This document shows positions 45,001-51,000 of a stretch of 64,000 bases of DNA, one piece after another. The position numbers are program-made. Origin of the DNA: Planctomycetota bacterium. GTDB taxonomy: Bacteria > Planctomycetota > GCA-002687715 > DRQF01. Where the stretch lies: assembly GCA_036479435.1 (NCBI GenBank), contig JAZGFI010000099.1, positions 1-64,000 on the forward strand, read 5' to 3'. Within the stretch, counting starts at the first letter, position 1. Each line of letters begins with the position of its first letter.

Positions 45001-48000
45001 ACCGCTGCGACTAGCCGCAAGCGGAAAGGCAGGTATAAGATGCAAAAGACCCGTACCGAAGCGTCGCAGCTTCGCAATCTCTTCATTCAGGCTGACGAAC
45101 TCGAGCGCGTTTCGCGCCAACTCGAGTCGGATCCCGAGCCCGAAGCGGCGACGAGCCTGCTCGAGAACAAGGCCCAGGCGCGCCGTCACCTCCGCGATAG
45201 CTTCAAAAAGGCCCGGCCTTTGGTGTTTGAACGCATGTTCGCCGGACTCGAAGGTGCCACGGCAGAACGCGACGACATGGCCTTGGCGCTGTTGCTCCTC
45301 AACCGCCGCATCCGCGAGGGCGATGCCGGACTGTGCGGTCGTGAATTGCTCTGGCTCCTTTACGACAACAGTTACGACGTCCTGGCGGCAGTCCCGCGCC
45401 TTGGTCCCAAGGGGGCCTTGGCCCGCGCCAAGCTCGTCGTTTCCTGGCCAGATCCCGATCTCGAAAGCCATGATCTCCTCGATCAGGTTTATGCGCTAGC
45501 GCCCGAAGCCTATGACCGCGTCATCGGCAGCGATTCGGGTTCTGCTGCGGATGAGGGCCTGCCCTTTAGCGACAGTATCGATCACGCCCTAGGCCTTTAC
45601 GAGTACGCACAGACTCACCAGCGCCGCGCCGCAAAGGTCTTCATAGAGGGTCTCTGGCGAAGTGATTACGGAGAACCAGAGGAGACCATAGAGAGTCTCG
45701 ACGCGGAAATCGATCGCATGAAGGCGGACATCAACCGTCGCCACGCCAAGGCCTCGAATCCTGAGCTTTTCAGCCTCACCAGTTTGAAGAGCGACTTCGG
45801 ATTGAGCGGCGTCGAGCTTTTGATGGTCGTGCAACTACTGCTGCAAGAGGCACTCGGCGGCCAGGGCTCCATCGACGCCATCGACTTGCTCCGCCTCGTT
45901 AGCCGATCAGAAAGAGACTTGCTGCGCAAGCGCGCCCTGCTGGCGGAGGATTCCAAGTTGATTCAGATGGGAATCGTCGTGCTCGATGAAGGCTATGCCG
46001 ACAGGGGCCTGACCGGGCAAGCGTCCTTAAATGGATGGGTAACCCAGCGGCTTTTGGATGACCCCCTAGCGCAAAAACAGGAAATCGAGGTCGATGAGAG
46101 AATCCAGTTCCACAAGTACCTTGGCGATCTCCACAACAGCGCGGATTTCTACCGCCGCTTGGATTAAGGCCTAGGGCTCAGGGTGCCCAAAGCCGCCACA
46201 AAGACGGTCCGAGTAGGGCGGGTCCAGAGGTTTCCGTCGGCGAGGCTTCGTGTAGACTCATCGCATGAAGCGAGACCAGAAAATCAGCAAGGTCTACGCG
46301 CAGGTTCAAAAGAGCCTTGCTGCGGAGTTCGACCGTAAAATCTACTGCGAAGTCGCAAAGCAACTCGACCGAGATGGCGACCTTAAGCGTACTCTAGCGG
46401 CGGCGCGACTCGTGATCGAACTGGATCCACAATCGGCGATCGCTCACTTCGAGTTGGCCAAGTACCTCATCAAAAGTGGTGACTACCTTGAGGGCGGCAA
46501 ACAGCTGGAAGTCTGTAGCGAACTCGATTCCGTCGAAGTCGCGGGTCGCCGTTGGCAAAACAACAACCTCTACTACATCGCCTACGTCTTCTTTAATCTC
46601 GGCCGCTATCAAGAGGCCGCTGACGCCTTTAGGGGAGCGCAAAACCTCATCGACATTTGGAGCGACCCGGTCGTGCTGAAGAACTTCTTGTGGCACCAGG
46701 GTTTTGCCCTCCATGAATGCGGTCAGTTCTTGGATGCTGCGGAATGCTACCGCCGGGCCATGGTCGCGCCCGGCCCCGGTGACTCCTGTATCGAAGACGA
46801 GATGGACGAAGACGAAGTCGAGGCGGCGCAAGCCTTGAACGACGAGATCGAACCCTACATGGAGCTCGCGCAAAAAGGAGTCGCCTTAGAGTTGAACGCG
46901 GTCGAAGTGACGCCCGCGTTTTCGACCTAGGCAAAGCCCAAGGCAACTCTCTCAATGCGTCGAATCCTCGTTCTCGAACCCTACGATGGCGGATCTCACG
47001 CACGCTTTTTGAATGACCTAGCGCGACAGTTTCCGAACGATCACTTCGAGCGAATGTCTCTACCCGCCCGGAGCTGGAAATGGCGCATGCGGTTCGCAGC
47101 AATTGAGTTCGCGAAACGCTGCCGCGAACTCGATGATGGCGGCGCCGCCTTTGATTTCATCATCGCTTCCACCTTCATCAACCTTGCCGAGTTTCGAGCC
47201 CTTGCCCCCGCGGCTATCGGAGCCTTGCCCTCGATCCTCTATTTTCATGAGAACCAACTGGCCTATCCCAATCAGGTCGCCGATAAACGCGATGTCCATT
47301 TTGGGATCACCAACATCATTGCGGCACTTGCCGCGACGCGGCTGGTATTCAACACACGCTACAACCTCGACAGTTTCCTCGGCGCCATCCCCGACCTGAT
47401 ACGCAAAGCGCCGGATATGGACTTGGGCTTTGTTCTTGAGGAACTATGTCAAAAATCAAATGTGTTTCCGGTGCCGCTCGATTTGGATTTGGAACCATCC
47501 CTTGTCGCGGCCCGTTCTCAAGATGCGTCCCCCATCGTCGTTTGGAATCACCGCTGGGAGCACGACAAAGCCCCCGAGGCGTTTTTCCAAGCTCTCTTCG
47601 CCCTCGCAGATCAGGGACTGGATTTTCGGGTTGCCGTAGCGGGCCAAAACTTCGAGCATCGCCCCAAGATATTTGATGAGGCCAAAGCAAGGCTGGGCCC
47701 GCGGATTTGCCAATGGGGTGCGGTCAAGACTCGAGTTGACTACCTCGAATTACTGCGCCGCAGCACCGTTTGCGTTTCAACTGCGCTCCACGAGTTTCAA
47801 GGATTGAGTGTTCTTGAGGCCGCCGCCCAAGGTTGCCACTTGGTCTTGCCCGACCGCCTGAGCTACCCGGAGCTGTTTCCAAGCCTTGCGCGCTACGATA
47901 ACCGGCCAGGGCTGGAGCGCATGCTCAATGAGATCTTGAGCCGCCGCCCGGCGGTCGACGAGGCCCTTGTTGAACGCGCTCGGGAATTCGCCTGGAGCCA

Positions 48001-51000
48001 GTGGCGCCCGGTCTATGACCGTTTCTTTGAAGAACTGGCCCCAGACTCTCTGAATCCGCCCCGTGAAGAGCCGCCGAAATCGAGTTAAAGTGAGGCATGG
48101 CTGCCAATCAACATGATGACTTGATTTACGACTGGAATCTCCGCGAACCCGCAGAGTCAATACCGCGCAAAGTGACTTTCGACGACGAAACCCTTCGCGA
48201 CGGCCTCCAAAACCCCTCGGTTCGCAACCCGGACCTCGACGAGAAACGTGCGCTCGTCCGACTGATGGATCGCCTCGGCATCCACACGGTAAACGTCGGC
48301 CTTCCCGGCGCCGGCGATCGCCACTACGTCGATTGCTTGGCCCTGGCCCAACAAATCGTTGACGAGAAGTTGAGCATTGTGCCGAACGTGGCCTGCCGCA
48401 CTTTGCTCAACGACGTCGAGCCGGTGCGGCGGATGATGGACGAGACTGGAGCTCCGGTTTTGGCCAACTGCTTCATCGGCTCGTCGCCTATCCGTCAGTA
48501 CACCGAGGGTTGGACTCTCGACAAGATTCTCAGTTACATCGACACCACTCTTCGTTGGTGCGCGGACCACGAGGTCCCCTTTGCGCTCGTTACCGAAGAC
48601 ACGACGCGCTCCAAACCCGAAGACGTCGAGCGGCTCTATCGACACGCCATCGAACTCGGCGCCGAGCGGCTTGTCGTCTGCGATACCTGCGGGCACGCGA
48701 CCCCCGAGGGCACCTACTCTTTGATCAAGTTTGTCCGCGAGATCGCAGACAGCAGCGGCCGCGATGTCAAGGTTGACTGGCACGGTCACCGCGACCGGGG
48801 ATTGGGCGAAGCCAACTGCATCGCCGCCGTTAGGGGCGGGGCCGACCAAATTCACGGCGCCGCTCTCGGCGTCGGCGAACGCGCGGGCAATGCCGCGATG
48901 GACCTGATCTTGGTGAACTTCAAGTTGCTGGGATGGATCGACAACGATCTCACCGCTTTGGCCGAGTACTGCGATTTTGCCGCGAAGGCGCTCAACATCG
49001 AAATCCCAAACAACTACCCCGTCTTTGGCCACGATGCCTTTTTGACCGGCACCGGCGTTCACGCCGCCGCCGTCATCAAAGCCATGCGAAAAAACGACAA
49101 CTGGCTTGCGGATCGAGTCTACTCAGGGGTTCCTGCCGCCGACTTCGGTCGAAAGCAAGAAATCGGAGTCGGCCCCATGTCGGGCAAATCAAACGTGCTC
49201 TTTTTCTTGGAGCAGCGCGGCTACGATCCGAACAACGAGGCCCTAGTTGAAGCCGTCTTCGACTGCGCCAAAAAGTCCGACCATCTGCTCAGCTCCAGCG
49301 AACTCGAAGCCGCCATCGCCTCTTTTGAAGGCAAAAACTGAGCGGAGCTAACCCTAGATAACGAGAGTTCAGTGCAGCGAGCCGCCGCTTCATTGAGCAA
49401 TTTGGCGTGTAGCAACATCGAAAGGGTGGAACCGGTCTCACCCGATCTCGAAGACTAGCTGCGGCGCTTGTTCTTGTTTGAAGAACGTCGCGCGCCCGAC
49501 TGAGTGACACTCGCCATGATCCGAGTTTTTTCAATTCTCTCAGTGCTCTTCGTTTTGTTCACACCTAGAAATGCAAGGGTAATGGCGATGAACCCCCCGC
49601 TGCTCAAAAGTCCGCCCTCAAGATTCTTACCCTCAGAGAGGAGGTAAGTCGAGCAGCCGAGAAGTGCGAGCACAAAAACCAAGCCTGAGACCAAGCCAAC
49701 GCGGGTCTTGAAAGTCTCGTTTGCAACAGCCTGCTTTTCAATTTCTTGTCGGTGATCGGATTGTTTCTCCACCATTCGAAAAGCACGGTCTGCTCCATTT
49801 GGAACGACTTCACCGAGCTTCTCAAATTCAAACGATGGTGGAAACGGCGATGTGAACTCTAAGTCAACGCGGCTTTCGTGATGAACAGTATGCGAAACCT
49901 TCTGTTGGTCAGATTTGCGATTTGTGGGGTTCTTGTCGGGCATCCAAGTGATGTTCGGGGATGGATTATTCTGTCGTCGCTTCGCGTGTTTTCGCCGACT
50001 CAGGTCGCATCTCCATTGCGGCTTGTTTCAAGCCATCCAAAAAGTCGCGACCGACCATCTCGCAATCCATTCTTAAAGCAACAAAGTCAGCTTGACTTCC
50101 ACTCGGTGAGGTGACGTACTCTTCCGCAGAACCTGTTATGTCGATAACGCTGCTGAATCCGTCCCAAAACCCCGAGTGCGCCGTCAGAAAAAAACTCTCG
50201 GGTTCATTCATGATTTGACTCCTTTGGTCAACATAGACCTAAGAATATGTACGGTTGCCGCAGGAGTCAACCTTGAGAGAATTGTCGACATTTCTAAACC
50301 TTTTCAAAACAAAGCTTTAGACACGAGCGATCGGCCCCGGACGGACGTCTTTGTGCTTGCACCTGAACAAGAAGTCACCGAAATGGTCTAAACAGCCAAG
50401 ACCGGAACTCTCTCACCGTAGTGAAAGACGAGCGGCTTGCTGCTTAGGTACGTTAAAACCAACTCAAAACTCTTGGCTGAGCTAAAGATCTCTGACAATC
50501 CGATCCCAGCCGAGATAGCGGGTTTGGCGATCAGCGGTCGTGCGCAGCGCGATCCGCTGCATTGCCGTGTTAGGCACCAACCTGCTGAATCGCACCAACT
50601 GCAGCTGCCCCCGCGGGTGCCCTAAGAAGTAGTTCGCCATAGCCATAGTCGTAGGTAGCCGGAGGGAAGAGTGAATGGACGCTTGTCAGCCCGCCGGAGC
50701 CGAGCCAAAGAAGCGCGTCGAACAGCGACACTCGGATAACACCGACGATCAAGTCTGAGTAGTCCATGCGTGTGTGGTCGTTGTGCCTCGCGCGTCGCAC
50801 CAAGAGGCCGTGTTGCGCATGTGGCCGCACGAAATGTGATGGCGCCGCTACCCGAAGATCGACGAGTTCGGTATCGCCACCACTCCAGAAACCGGGCCGT
50901 TCGCGTTTTTGCGTCGAAGCTGGAACGTTGAGCATGACGACATAGACGAACTCCTTGTTTGACCGCACAGCGCGCTGCTCAAAGTGGAGAAACTGAGCTG

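What a model noticed while it worked through the whole genome (the two positions that open the first line are those of the whole stretch)
46955..48088. Bacterial ortholog of animal tRNA-queuosine mannosyltransferase (QTMAN) in a genome with a full queuosine pathway
g01326 (377 aa) matches the animal tRNA-queuosine alpha-mannosyltransferase QTMAN/GTDC1 end to end, including the family-specific N-terminal domain, and the genome encodes queuosine insertion and maturation. I propose that this planctomycete glycosylates Q34 of tRNA (mannosyl-queuosine or a related glycosyl-Q), a modification so far known only from animals. If true, glycosylated queuosine is a bacterial invention and an easily expressed bacterial enzyme becomes available to make glyco-Q tRNA in vitro.
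Evidence so far: Swiss-Prot best hits: QTMAN of Drosophila (33% identity, residues 4-324 of 377 vs 8-329 of 377, E 1.7e-61), zebrafish (E 1e-59), Xenopus (E 1e-55). Pfam QTMAN_N E 3e-55 covering model 1-168 of 168, then Glycos_transf_1. Q genes: QueC g00981, QueF g00023, Tgt g00573 and g03966, QueA g01543, QueG g02292; tRNA-Asp GUC, Tyr GUA, His GUG, Asn GUU. relatives.tsv: family in 6 of 22 genomes of the order, 19% of Planctomycetota, 3.6% of bacterial species genomes. 573 relatives confirmed in genome_contigs, best 40-50% identical in Desulfobulbia/Nitrospirota MAGs. No NCBIfam name, no solved structure by sequence. Papers: searches QTMAN/GTDC1/mannosyl-queuosine+bacteria and DUF3524 found no report of a [...]
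(Added by a program. Inside this text positions count along the whole contig: contig position 1 is position 1 of the stretch shown here. "Call 12" and the like, gene names such as g00115 and contig names such as C1 are that model's own, and its searches are not shown. The text may have been shortened before it was handed on; [...] marks where a part breaks off. The agent that wrote the report below was given it as the finding of a first reader that could run no searches.)

Follow-up and report, generated by a model that had tools for sequence, protein, structure and literature searches.

The report
Bacterial relative of queuosine mannosyltransferase
This planctomycete gene is an intact, full-length relative of the animal enzyme that adds mannose to the tRNA base queuosine, and in other bacteria such genes occur almost only where queuosine-tRNA can be made, so sugar-bearing queuosine probably exists in bacteria, though no experiment has shown it.

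Summary
The ORF at 46955-48088 (+), 377 aa, is real. It has a complete QTMAN_N domain (PF12038, E 9.9e-55, model 1-168/168) and a GT1-type C-domain, and it folds as a retaining GT-B glycosyltransferase.

The genome holds Tgt (2 copies), QueA, QueG, QueC, QueF and all four GUN tRNAs. It has no GluQRS, and QueD was not found.

I tested the idea by gene distribution.
- Of 134 distinct genomes that carry the family, 126 have QueA.
- In Acidimicrobiia, 34 of 34 carriers have QueA, against 115 of 167 non-carriers.
- All 8 carriers without QueA have Tgt.
- Seven of these 8 are Chloroflexota without QueC. Their Tgt has a five-residue GGSLG pocket, shortened as in published queuine-salvaging Tgt.
- One planctomycete carrier remains unexplained.

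No neighbouring gene is conserved (at most 12 of 81 loci). None of 69 adjacent genes is a queuosine gene or a glycosyltransferase.

So the family follows the ability to have queuosine in tRNA. Acceptor, sugar and target tRNA remain inferred from homology.

Pfam and NCBI already name these bacterial proteins after QTMAN, and this scan noted the family on other DNA in at least 7 genomes. I could not retrieve an animal QTMAN sequence or the discovery paper.

Confidence that it glycosylates Q34: about 0.5.

The parts
46955..48088 (+). QTMAN-family glycosyltransferase gene, 377 aa (P0001)
   Evidence: ORF list and translation. Pfam. More than 5662 homologues at E <= 1e-10 among the 8000 candidates scored.
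46961..47479 (+). N-terminal QTMAN_N domain (residues 3-175). In GT-B enzymes this is the presumed acceptor-binding half.
   Evidence: PF12038, E 9.9e-55, model 1-168/168. The same span was found by the genome search. The role as acceptor half follows from general knowledge of GT-B enzymes and is an inference.
47075..47092 (+). WKWRMR motif (residues 41-46) at the start of helix 41-61. A basic cluster, invariant in 27 of 27 aligned bacterial members.
   Evidence: Alignment A1. Secondary structure of the model. A role in RNA binding is an inference.
47240..47257 (+). YFHENQ motif (residues 96-101), followed by a flexible loop (pLDDT below 50 at residues 105-107)
   Evidence: Y96, H98, E99, N100 and Q101 are invariant and F97 nearly invariant in A1. 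Model confidence. That 'HENQ' is the signature Pfam gave for DUF3524 is recalled, not from a call.
47522..48004 (+). C-terminal GT1/GT4-type nucleotide-sugar-binding domain (residues about 190-350)
   Evidence: Glycos_transf_1, Glyco_trans_1_4 and Glyco_trans_1_2. Foldseek top matches are the retaining GT-B enzymes GlgM, MshA, glycogen synthase and BshA.
47543..47569 (+). WNHRWEHDK (residues 197-205), with R200 and K205 forming the R-x4-K diphosphate-binding pair typical of GT4 enzymes
   Evidence: Invariant in A1. The equivalence to MshA Arg/Lys and to human QTMAN K296 is an inference. [quoted passage not shown]
47789..47818 (+). HEFQGLSVLE (residues 279-288), the E-x7-E motif of retaining GT4 enzymes (E280, E288)
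   Evidence: H279, E280, F281, G283 and E288 are invariant in A1. The motif name is recalled.
46265..46930 (+). Upstream neighbour: TPR-repeat protein, 221 aa, 24 bases before the gene. Context only.
   Evidence: Pfam TPR families. Not conserved beside homologues elsewhere.
48097..49341 (+). Downstream neighbour: HMGL-like protein (homocitrate or isopropylmalate synthase-like), 414 aa, 8 bases after the gene. Probably the same transcription unit. Context only.
   Evidence: PF00682, E 4.6e-37. All NCBIfam matches are below their cut-offs. Not conserved beside homologues.

Best explanation
The gene encodes a soluble cytoplasmic retaining glycosyltransferase with a GT-B fold, a member of the QTMAN (GTDC1, formerly DUF3524) family. 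Its most likely job is a late tRNA modification. After Tgt, QueA and QueG have built queuosine at position 34, the C-domain binds a nucleotide sugar through R200/K205 and E280/E288. By analogy the sugar is GDP-mannose. The family-specific N-domain (YFHENQ loop, basic WKWRMR helix) presents the cyclopentenediol of Q34, and a hexose is transferred with retention of configuration to give a glycosyl-queuosine. By analogy the target is tRNA-Asp.

Shown: the gene, its domains, fold and motifs, the queuosine pathway in the genome, and the restriction of the family to genomes with Tgt.

Inferred: the acceptor, the sugar, the target tRNA and the roles of the motifs.
For: (1) Full-length match to QTMAN_N plus a GT1 C-domain. 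The model has pLDDT 87.3 and pTM 0.83 with two Rossmann-like halves. The nearest solved folds are retaining GT4-type enzymes at 10-15% identity.

(2) The N-domain is very strongly conserved. A1 has 62 invariant columns in 27 sequences, including WKWRMR, HENQ and RD. This fits one fixed, specific acceptor.

(3) The substrate is available: Tgt x2, QueA, QueG, QueC, QueF and tRNA-Asp/Asn/Tyr/His GUN. There is no GluQRS over its cut-off to compete for Q34 of tRNA-Asp.

(4) Gene distribution. QueA was found in:
- 50 of 50 carrier genomes reached through loci (50 of my 80 loci)
- 34 of 34 carriers against 115 of 167 non-carriers in Acidimicrobiia (Fisher p 1.9e-05; kin are not independent)
- 14 of 14 carriers against 223 of 337 non-carriers in an Actinomycetota sample (7 carriers are shared with the Acidimicrobiia sample)

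(5) All 8 carriers without QueA have Tgt. Seven are Chloroflexota that also lack a real QueC. Their Tgt has GGSLG (5 residues) where the five other Tgt sequences aligned have a six-residue GGxxVG motif (GGLAVG in G022 and G544). Quaiyum et al. 2024 (PMC11570991, passages read) report that queuine-salvaging bacterial Tgt typically have GG[LS][AS]G, and that the Val of GGLAVG would clash with the cis-diol of queuine.

(6) The gene stands alone among housekeeping genes. None of 69 same-strand adjacent genes is another glycosyltransferase, a sugar-nucleotide enzyme or a polysaccharide exporter. This argues against a cell-envelope role.
Against: - There is no experimental datum for any bacterial member. 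My literature searches found none.
- No queuosine or tRNA gene is a conserved neighbour. The commonest neighbour family occurs in 12 of 81 loci. Of 69 adjacent genes, 0 are queuosine genes and only 1 is an RNA-modification enzyme (RlmN-like, L061).
- In Chloroflexota only 2 of 9 carriers have QueA, against 117 of 142 non-carriers. The queuine-salvage rescue is an inference. GGSLG does not fit the published GG[LS][AS]G at its fourth residue. No Qng1/PF10343 was found in these genomes (that search rang in no control genome).
- Carrier G386 (99% complete) has QueC and a canonical Tgt pocket but no QueA even at E <= 10.
- Tgt is so common that 'always with Tgt' has little power. QueA is nearly universal in Planctomycetota (35 of 36 carriers against 158 of 165 non-carriers), so the window's own phylum gives no test.
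- GluQRS coexists with the family in 4 of 50 carriers, so the two are not mutually exclusive.
- GT4 enzymes change acceptor readily.
- I could not align the protein with an animal QTMAN.
Confidence: 0.5

Rival explanations
1. The bacterial proteins glycosylate something unrelated to queuosine, such as a small cytoplasmic metabolite (as the structurally nearest enzymes MshA, BshA and GlgM do), a protein or a lipid. Animal QTMAN would then be a later re-use of this scaffold for tRNA.
For: The closest solved folds are small-molecule or glucan GT4/GT5-type enzymes. No queuosine gene is a neighbour in 81 loci. Seven of 9 Chloroflexota carriers lack both QueA and QueC. Carrier G386 lacks QueA. The distribution is patchy, 18% of Planctomycetota and 0 of 9 close relatives, as for an accessory metabolic gene. 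Rare fused forms carry a sulfotransferase domain (P0123) or a carboxypeptidase-regulatory-like domain (P0122) and no RNA-binding domain.
Against: The acceptor-side N-domain is the part that defines the family shared with animal QTMAN, and it matches the model end to end at 185 bits. Carriers were never seen without Tgt (8 of 8 QueA-less carriers). In Actinomycetota they are confined to QueA-bearing genomes (34 of 34 and 14 of 14). The QueA-less carriers have a Tgt pocket shortened as in queuine salvagers. No partner genes of a metabolite pathway are conserved beside the gene.
Confidence: 0.33
2. The enzyme acts on a 7-deazaguanine compound other than Q34 of tRNA-Asp. Candidates are Q in another GUN tRNA, epoxy-Q, free queuine or queuosine (for example to store or export it), or a deazaguanine in DNA.
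For: The family tracks Tgt and queuosine capacity, but nothing computed here points to tRNA-Asp specifically. Earlier notes of this scan (e1-6023019, e1-6017570) say that phage QTMAN-like genes lie beside genes that put 7-deazaguanine into DNA. That would make deazaguanine, not tRNA-Asp, the common denominator.
Against: I could not reproduce the phage lead. tblastn against 50,697 phage records gave only a weak C-domain match. Two scans of viral contigs gave no relative. Both Tgt copies of this genome have the ordinary tRNA-type pocket and zinc site. Nothing computed here points to DNA as the acceptor.
Confidence: 0.13
3. The gene is an inactive or decaying remnant.
For: Patchy distribution. 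The closest relatives in the same order lack it (0 of 9).
Against: The frame is intact. All 62 family-invariant residues are kept, including R200, K205, E280 and E288. The model is confident. G+C content is like its surroundings.
Confidence: 0.03

Closest known systems
Animal QTMAN (GTDC1), tRNA-queuosine alpha-mannosyltransferase (Zhao et al. 2023, Cell. The paper is not held and is known to me only through citing papers)
   Same: Same Pfam architecture: a full QTMAN_N domain plus a GT1 C-domain. A retaining GT-B fold, consistent with an alpha-linked product. A conserved Lys in the donor site (K205), probably the counterpart of human K296 (inference). It occurs in an organism that has Q34.
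   Different: It is bacterial and the host makes Q de novo instead of salvaging queuine. Activity, sugar and tRNA target are untested. No tree shows orthology.
GluQRS (YadB), bacterial glutamyl-queuosine tRNA-Asp synthetase
   Same: The only known bacterial enzyme that decorates the cyclopentenediol of Q34, in tRNA-Asp (PMC7694415). It would be the functional analogue.
   Different: An unrelated fold and chemistry (an aminoacyl-tRNA-synthetase paralogue). It is absent from this genome but coexists with the family in 4 of 50 carriers.
MshA, BshA and GlgM, retaining GT4-type glycosyltransferases acting on small molecules
   Same: The best structural matches (Foldseek E 8e-13 to 1e-11, TM up to 0.71). 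They share the R-x4-K and E-x7-E donor-site motifs.
   Different: Only 10-15% identity. None is found by sequence at E <= 1. Their N-domains are unrelated to QTMAN_N.
QTGAL (B3GNTL1), tRNA-queuosine galactosyltransferase
   Same: The second animal glyco-Q enzyme. It acts on Q34 of tRNA-Tyr.
   Different: A different protein family. Nothing in this window resembles it. It was not searched for in the genome.

Membership tests
QTMAN / GTDC1 family (Pfam QTMAN_N + GT1) | Complete N-terminal QTMAN_N (PF12038) domain | tested here: met
   E 9.9e-55, 185.3 bits against a cut-off of 25, model 1-168/168, residues 3-175. Confirmed by the genome search.
QTMAN / GTDC1 family (Pfam QTMAN_N + GT1) | C-terminal GT-B nucleotide-sugar domain with the R-x4-K and E-x7-E motifs of retaining GT4 enzymes | tested here: met
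   Glycos_transf_1 and Glyco_trans_1_4 over their cut-offs. R200, K205, E280 and E288 invariant in 27 of 27. GT-B model and matches to retaining GT-B enzymes. Motif names are recalled.
QTMAN / GTDC1 family (Pfam QTMAN_N + GT1) | The HENQ and FN[ST] sequence signatures that Pfam noted for DUF3524 (recalled) | tested here: met
   H98-E99-N100-Q101 and F132-N133 are present and invariant in A1.
QTMAN / GTDC1 family (Pfam QTMAN_N + GT1) | End-to-end similarity and orthology to an experimentally characterised animal QTMAN | not testable with these tools
   No tool returned an animal sequence. PDB has none by sequence. The Atlas lists a nearest cluster that mixes Bacteria (53%) with Arthropoda, but gives no sequences or alignment.
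QTMAN / GTDC1 family (Pfam QTMAN_N + GT1) | Catalytic lysine equivalent to human K296 | tested here: inconclusive
   K205 is invariant and sits in the R-x4-K donor motif. The equivalence to K296 could not be aligned.
QTMAN / GTDC1 family (Pfam QTMAN_N + GT1) | Transfers mannose from GDP-mannose to Q34 of tRNA-Asp | not testable with these tools
   Needs biochemistry or tRNA mass spectrometry.
QTMAN / GTDC1 family (Pfam QTMAN_N + GT1) | The host can have queuosine in tRNA (substrate present) | tested here: met
   Own genome: Tgt x2, QueA, QueG and GUN tRNAs. Across 134 carriers, 126 have QueA, 8 have Tgt only, and 7 of those 8 have a shortened Tgt pocket like queuine salvagers. One carrier (G386) is unexplained.
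Cell-envelope or exopolysaccharide GT4 glycosyltransferases | Lies in a cluster with other glycosyltransferases, sugar-nucleotide enzymes, flippases or exporters | tested here: not met
   In the window the neighbours are a TPR protein and an HMGL-like synthase. None of 69 adjacent same-strand genes in other loci is of these kinds. The best NCBIfam match is EpsE at 18.9 bits against a cut-off of 400.
Anti-phage 'conflict system' GT4 (PF20706) and PADLOC systems | Match to a defence-system model | tested here: not met
   No PADLOC family at E <= 0.001. PF20706 does not appear for P0001. It appears only as a precomputed or below-cut-off C-domain match in some homologues.

The most novel reading that the evidence does not exclude
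Glycosylated queuosine is not an animal speciality but a widespread bacterial tRNA modification made by QTMAN-family enzymes in many phyla. The family follows the ability to have Q in tRNA whichever way it is obtained. This includes a Chloroflexota clade with a eukaryote-like set: no QueA, no QueC, a Tgt with a shortened pocket like that of queuine salvagers, and a QTMAN homologue. The animal manQ system would then have been inherited or acquired from bacteria. A small soluble bacterial enzyme would be available to make glyco-Q tRNA in vitro.
Probability: 0.45. Interest if true: 0.75.

Novelty: new member of a known kind. Interest (0 to 1): 0.5.

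Why it matters
manQ and galQ have been known since the 1970s, and the reviews and papers I read list them only for eukaryotes. 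Their enzymes were named only in 2023 and their purpose is still debated. If bacteria make glycosyl-queuosine, three things follow.
- The modification gains a tractable genetic system.
- An easily expressed enzyme becomes available for preparing glyco-Q tRNA.
- The origin of the animal enzyme becomes a question that can be answered.

The hypothesis is cheap to test, because E. coli already supplies Q-tRNA.

Its value is limited by prior knowledge. Pfam renamed DUF3524 to QTMAN_N. NCBI already labels some bacterial members 'tRNA-queuosine alpha-mannosyltransferase domain-containing protein'. This scan has raised the same idea on other DNA at least 7 times.

New here are the gene-distribution test and the link between QueA-less carriers and a Tgt pocket shortened as in queuine salvagers.

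Tried and rejected
- Conserved neighbours. I clustered 953 ORFs from 81 loci. Apart from the family itself, no family occurs in more than 12 loci, and synteny is lineage-specific. Pfam on 69 adjacent same-strand genes gave TerB in 5 (4 of them with DnaJ), shikimate kinase in 4, CxxCxxCC in 3, DUF1178, LeuD-like, PRA-PH and sulfatase in 2 each, singletons, and 25 with no family. There is no functional partner.
- Mutual exclusion with GluQRS. It is present over its cut-off in 4 of 50 carriers, so the two are not exclusive. I did not measure a background rate.
- Qng1/DUF2419 queuine salvage in QueA-less carriers. It was found in 0 of 10 genomes, but the model rang in no control genome, so this is uninformative.
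- Neighbours of the variant Tgt. An FGGY kinase, a CvpA-like protein and GAPDH recur within the clade, and nothing is related to queuosine.
- Fused forms. Four longer proteins were found. P0121 to P0123 carry extra regions: P0123 has a sulfotransferase domain, P0122 a weak carboxypeptidase-regulatory-like match, and P0121 an N-terminal stretch with no Pfam match. P0124 is a frameshifted read-through of ThiI into a family member. It shows adjacency, not fusion. I made no 'shorter' search.
- Phage relatives, a lead from earlier notes. tblastn on phage records gave only a 26%-coverage C-domain match. The scan of viral contigs with A1 gave none. A back-translated FHENQxxYP pattern gave 2 chance matches that lie outside any ORF on that strand. 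The lead is not reproduced and not refuted.
- Sequence search of PDB: 0 hits at E <= 1. PADLOC: none. NCBIfam: none meaningful.
- Promoter and terminator scan. 0 promoter-like sites, and 9 terminator-like sites against 6.9 +/- 2.4 in shuffles, so it is uninformative.
- Getting an animal QTMAN sequence or the Zhao et al. 2023 paper. The paper is not held. Hit lists show only the best-scoring, bacterial relatives. The Atlas gives no sequences.
- An E-value split of QueA into 'canonical' and a lower-scoring class in Actinomycetota (70 of 237 matches above 1e-100). I chose this split after seeing the data, so I do not use it for the main counts.

Full report
**The observation**

Window 46955-48088 (+) holds an ATG-started ORF of 377 aa. 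Pfam finds a complete QTMAN_N domain: PF12038, E 9.9e-55, 185.3 bits, residues 3-175, model 1-168 of 168. It is followed by group-1 glycosyltransferase domains: Glyco_trans_1_4 at E 2.3e-07 and Glycos_transf_1 at E 5.2e-07.

The N-terminus aligns with the starts of 26 bacterial homologues, so the start is right. Only the last 15 or so residues are unconserved. G+C content is like that of the neighbouring sequence. This is the single PF12038 match in the assembly of 5.47 Mb, 299 contigs and 92.25% completeness.

The gene lies 24 bases after a TPR-protein gene and 8 bases before an HMGL-like gene (homocitrate or isopropylmalate synthase-like). The latter scores below every NCBIfam cut-off. A consensus scan for promoters and terminators gave nothing above chance.

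**The protein**

An AlphaFold2 model built on alignment A1 has mean pLDDT 87.3 and pTM 0.83. It shows two alternating strand-helix halves, that is, a GT-B fold. Foldseek against PDB returns only generic retaining GT-B enzymes: GlgM 6tvp, MshA 3c4q, archaeal glycogen synthase and BshA. Their E-values are 8e-13 to 1e-11, TM-scores reach 0.71 and identities are 10-15%. A sequence search of PDB finds nothing at E <= 1. No member of this family has therefore been solved.

In 27 aligned bacterial members (41-64% identical to the query) 62 columns are invariant:
- In the N-domain: W41-K42-W43-R44-M45-R46, Y96, H98-E99-N100-Q101 and R112-D113.
- In the C-domain: W197-N198-H199-R200-W201-E202-H203-D204-K205, and H279-E280-F281, G283 and E288.

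R200/K205 and E280/E288 are the R-x4-K and E-x7-E donor-site motifs of retaining GT4 enzymes (names recalled). [quoted passage not shown] K205 is its likely counterpart, but I could not align the two.

The enzyme therefore looks catalytically competent, soluble and cytoplasmic. NCBIfam has no model for it and PADLOC has none.

**Queuosine in this genome**

I confirmed these genes:
- Two full Tgt genes (E 1.3e-146 and 3.2e-146). Both have the ordinary pocket motifs FDEC, IVQGG, GGxxVGE and the zinc site.
- QueA, QueG, QueC and QueF.
- One each of tRNA-Asp GUC, Asn GUU, Tyr GUA and His GUG.

QueD/PTPS was not found. GluQRS is absent, and only the ordinary GluRS/GlnRS-like genes match, below the cut-off. 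The proposed substrate, Q34, should exist in this organism.

**How widespread the family is, and what is already said about it**

The protein database returned 5662 proteins at E <= 1e-10 among the 8000 candidates scored. The nearest are 65% and 56-58% identical, and one of the 56-58% group is named as a Planctomycetota MAG protein. Sources call them 'DUF3524 domain-containing protein' or 'glycosyltransferase involved in cell wall biosynthesis'. In one case the name is 'tRNA-queuosine alpha-mannosyltransferase domain-containing protein'.

The ESM Atlas names its nearest clusters in the same way. Its first cluster mixes Bacteria (53%) with Arthropoda.

In my samples the family occurs in:
- 36 of 201 Planctomycetota, but 0 of 9 other genomes of the window's own order or family
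- 34 of 201 Acidimicrobiia
- 9 of 151 Chloroflexota
- 14 of 351 Actinomycetota

It occurs in none of the 14 well-known control genomes.

On the literature, 'DUF3524', 'PF12038' and 'QTMAN_N' occur in no held paper. Searches combining QTMAN, GTDC1, manQ, galQ or glycosyltransferase with bacteria or prokaryotes returned reviews and animal studies only (listings). A 2020 review assigns ManQ and GalQ to Eukarya and not Bacteria (PMC7694415, passages read). The discovery paper (Zhao et al. 2023, Cell) is not held. Whatever it says about bacterial homologues I could not see.

This scan has noted the same family on other DNA in at least 7 bacterial genomes, with the same open verdict.

**The distribution test**

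If the acceptor is queuosine, the family must not occur in genomes that cannot have Q in tRNA. I used QueA (PF02547) as the marker of de novo Q.

(a) Carrier genomes reached through loci. The tool takes at most 50 loci per call. I sent 50 of my 80 loci, chosen before any result was seen. The 30 left out were mostly further Desulfobulbia or Desulfobacterales MAGs and short contigs. All 50 of 50 genomes have QueA.

(b) Acidimicrobiia, 201 genomes. QueA is in 149. All 34 carriers have it, against 115 of 167 non-carriers (Fisher p 1.9e-05).

(c) Actinomycetota, 351 genomes. QueA is in 237 at E <= 1e-10. All 14 carriers have it, each at E <= 1e-108, against 223 of 337 non-carriers (p 0.0063). Seven of these carriers are also in sample (b).

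(d) Planctomycetota, 201 genomes. QueA is in 193. It is in 35 of 36 carriers and 158 of 165 non-carriers, so this sample has no power.

(e) Chloroflexota, 151 genomes. QueA is in 119, but in only 2 of 9 carriers against 117 of 142 non-carriers (p 0.00028, in the opposite direction).

Related genomes are not independent, so these p-values overstate. The background tallies of (c) and (e) include genomes that the tool flags as unpublished. None of those is a carrier.

Over the 134 distinct carriers, 126 have QueA and 8 do not.

**The exceptions**

All 8 QueA-less carriers have Tgt.

The seven Chloroflexota form one group with a distinct Tgt. Compared with the Tgt of the QueA-bearing carriers G022 and G544, both copies of the window's genome, and G386, it has:
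- a 20-residue insertion after GGFQVFSL
- FDEL for FDEC
- IVHGG for IVQGG
- LLGVG for LMGVG
- GGSLG, with one residue fewer, for GGLAVG

None of the nine Chloroflexota carriers has a real QueC. There are only partial matches at E >= 2.9e-6 inside ORFs of 314-656 aa. They must therefore salvage a deazaguanine base.

Quaiyum et al. 2024 (PMC11570991, passages read) state three things:
- Bacteria with tgt but no other Q genes can salvage queuine like eukaryotes.
- Queuine-salvaging bacterial Tgt 'typically contain GG[LS][AS]G' where preQ1-type enzymes have GGLAVG.
- The Val lies within clash distance of the cis-diol of queuine.

GGSLG has the shortened five-residue form without the Val, but it has Leu where the published pattern has Ala or Ser. 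I therefore infer that these seven organisms insert queuine directly and so do have Q-tRNA. On that reading they are compatible with the hypothesis. They would also mirror the eukaryotic arrangement of queuine salvage plus QTMAN.

This is an inference:
- No Qng1 was found, though that search rang in no control genome.
- The changes Q-to-H and C-to-L could point to another base.
- Five of the seven also have a second, divergent Tgt paralogue of unknown role.

The eighth exception is planctomycete G386 (99% complete, 60 contigs). It has QueC and a canonical Tgt pocket but no QueA even at E <= 10. It remains unexplained. An assembly gap is possible.

**Context**

I called 953 ORFs in the 80 loci plus the window and clustered them. 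Beyond the family itself (recovered in 75 of 81 loci by my simple ORF caller), no family recurs in more than 12 loci, and positions vary.

I ran Pfam on the 69 same-strand neighbours lying within 150 bases:
- None is a queuosine gene, another glycosyltransferase, a sugar-nucleotide enzyme or an exporter.
- One is an RlmN-like RNA methyltransferase (L061).
- The recurrent ones are housekeeping genes of single lineages: TerB in 5 (4 of them with DnaJ), shikimate kinase in 4, CxxCxxCC in 3, and others in 2 each.
- 25 have no family.

It gives no positive support, although tRNA-modification genes are often scattered. It does count against a cell-envelope glycan role.

Longer forms are rare and show no RNA-binding fusion. 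One apparent ThiI fusion is a frameshifted read-through, which means adjacency. GluQRS coexists with the family in 4 of 50 carriers.

**A lead I could not reproduce**

Earlier notes say that phage QTMAN-like genes lie beside genes that put 7-deazaguanine into DNA. My searches of phage records and viral contigs found no relative of this protein. The lead stays untested here.

**Verdict**

The best reading is a QTMAN-family retaining glycosyltransferase that adds a hexose to queuosine in tRNA, at about 0.5.
- What is shown: homology, an intact active site, the presence of the substrate pathway, and a family distribution that follows the capacity to have Q in tRNA.
- What is inferred: acceptor, sugar, tRNA species and the orthology to animal QTMAN.
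- The main rival, a different acceptor, keeps about one third.

As an observation it is already catalogued by Pfam and NCBI names and by earlier notes of this scan. As a hypothesis it is unpublished in the held literature, plausible, and cheap to test.

Noticed in passing
L084-L090 (G558, G522, G540, G531, G585, G567, G474); neighbourhoods in L098-L100: A Chloroflexota clade without QueA and QueC has a distinct Tgt. It has a 20-residue insertion after GGFQVFSL, FDEL for FDEC, IVHGG for IVQGG, and GGSLG for GGLAVG. In the three loci examined it lies next to an FGGY sugar-kinase gene. The pocket is shortened as in published queuine-salvaging Tgt but does not fit that motif exactly. All seven genomes carry the QTMAN-family gene.
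   Followed up: partly
L094-L097 (G531, G540, G567, G522): The same Chloroflexota have a second, divergent Tgt paralogue. It is 33-34% identical to a canonical Tgt, keeps DSGG, LDDC, VVQGG and the zinc site, but has GGWPLD in the pocket and an extra insertion. Its role is unknown. It could be a partner subunit or an enzyme for another substrate.
   Followed up: partly
G000:C42:39071-40114 (-) and G000:C262:23501-24559 (+), outside the window: The window's genome has two full-length Tgt genes, 47% identical to each other. Both have canonical preQ1-type pocket motifs.
   Followed up: partly
Tables (Acidimicrobiia, Chloroflexota, Actinomycetota samples): Many genomes have a second, lower-scoring class of QueA-like match (E about 1e-50 to 1e-80, model from position 3-14 onward). 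Sometimes it is the only match, often in large genomes. It may be a QueA paralogue with another function, and it would inflate 'QueA present' counts among non-carriers.
   Followed up: no
G386 (Planctomycetota, 99% complete): family gene at C6:52306-52806, Tgt at C6:130456-131595: This genome carries the QTMAN-family gene, QueC and a canonical Tgt, but no QueA at E <= 10. The Tgt has a long insertion after the FDDC motif.
   Followed up: partly
P0124 (796 aa, from a 54-kb contig): A called protein reads from ThiI (the tRNA 4-thiouridine enzyme) through frameshifts into a QTMAN-family gene. In that organism the two genes are therefore adjacent.
   Followed up: partly
P0123 (734 aa) and P0122 (1201 aa): Rare longer family members carry an extra C-terminal sulfotransferase domain (PF03567) in P0123, or a long tail with a weak carboxypeptidase-regulatory-like match in P0122.
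   Followed up: no
window 51448-53493 (-), 50570-51433 (-), 49455-49943 (-): Downstream on the other strand lie a 681-aa B12-binding radical SAM protein, an FRG-domain protein and a DUF2335 membrane protein. None was examined further.
   Followed up: no
window 48097-49341 (+): The HMGL-like gene 8 bases after the glycosyltransferase resembles homocitrate, isopropylmalate and citramalate synthases (best E 1.1e-49), but it is far below every NCBIfam cut-off and lacks their C-terminal regulatory part.
   Followed up: no
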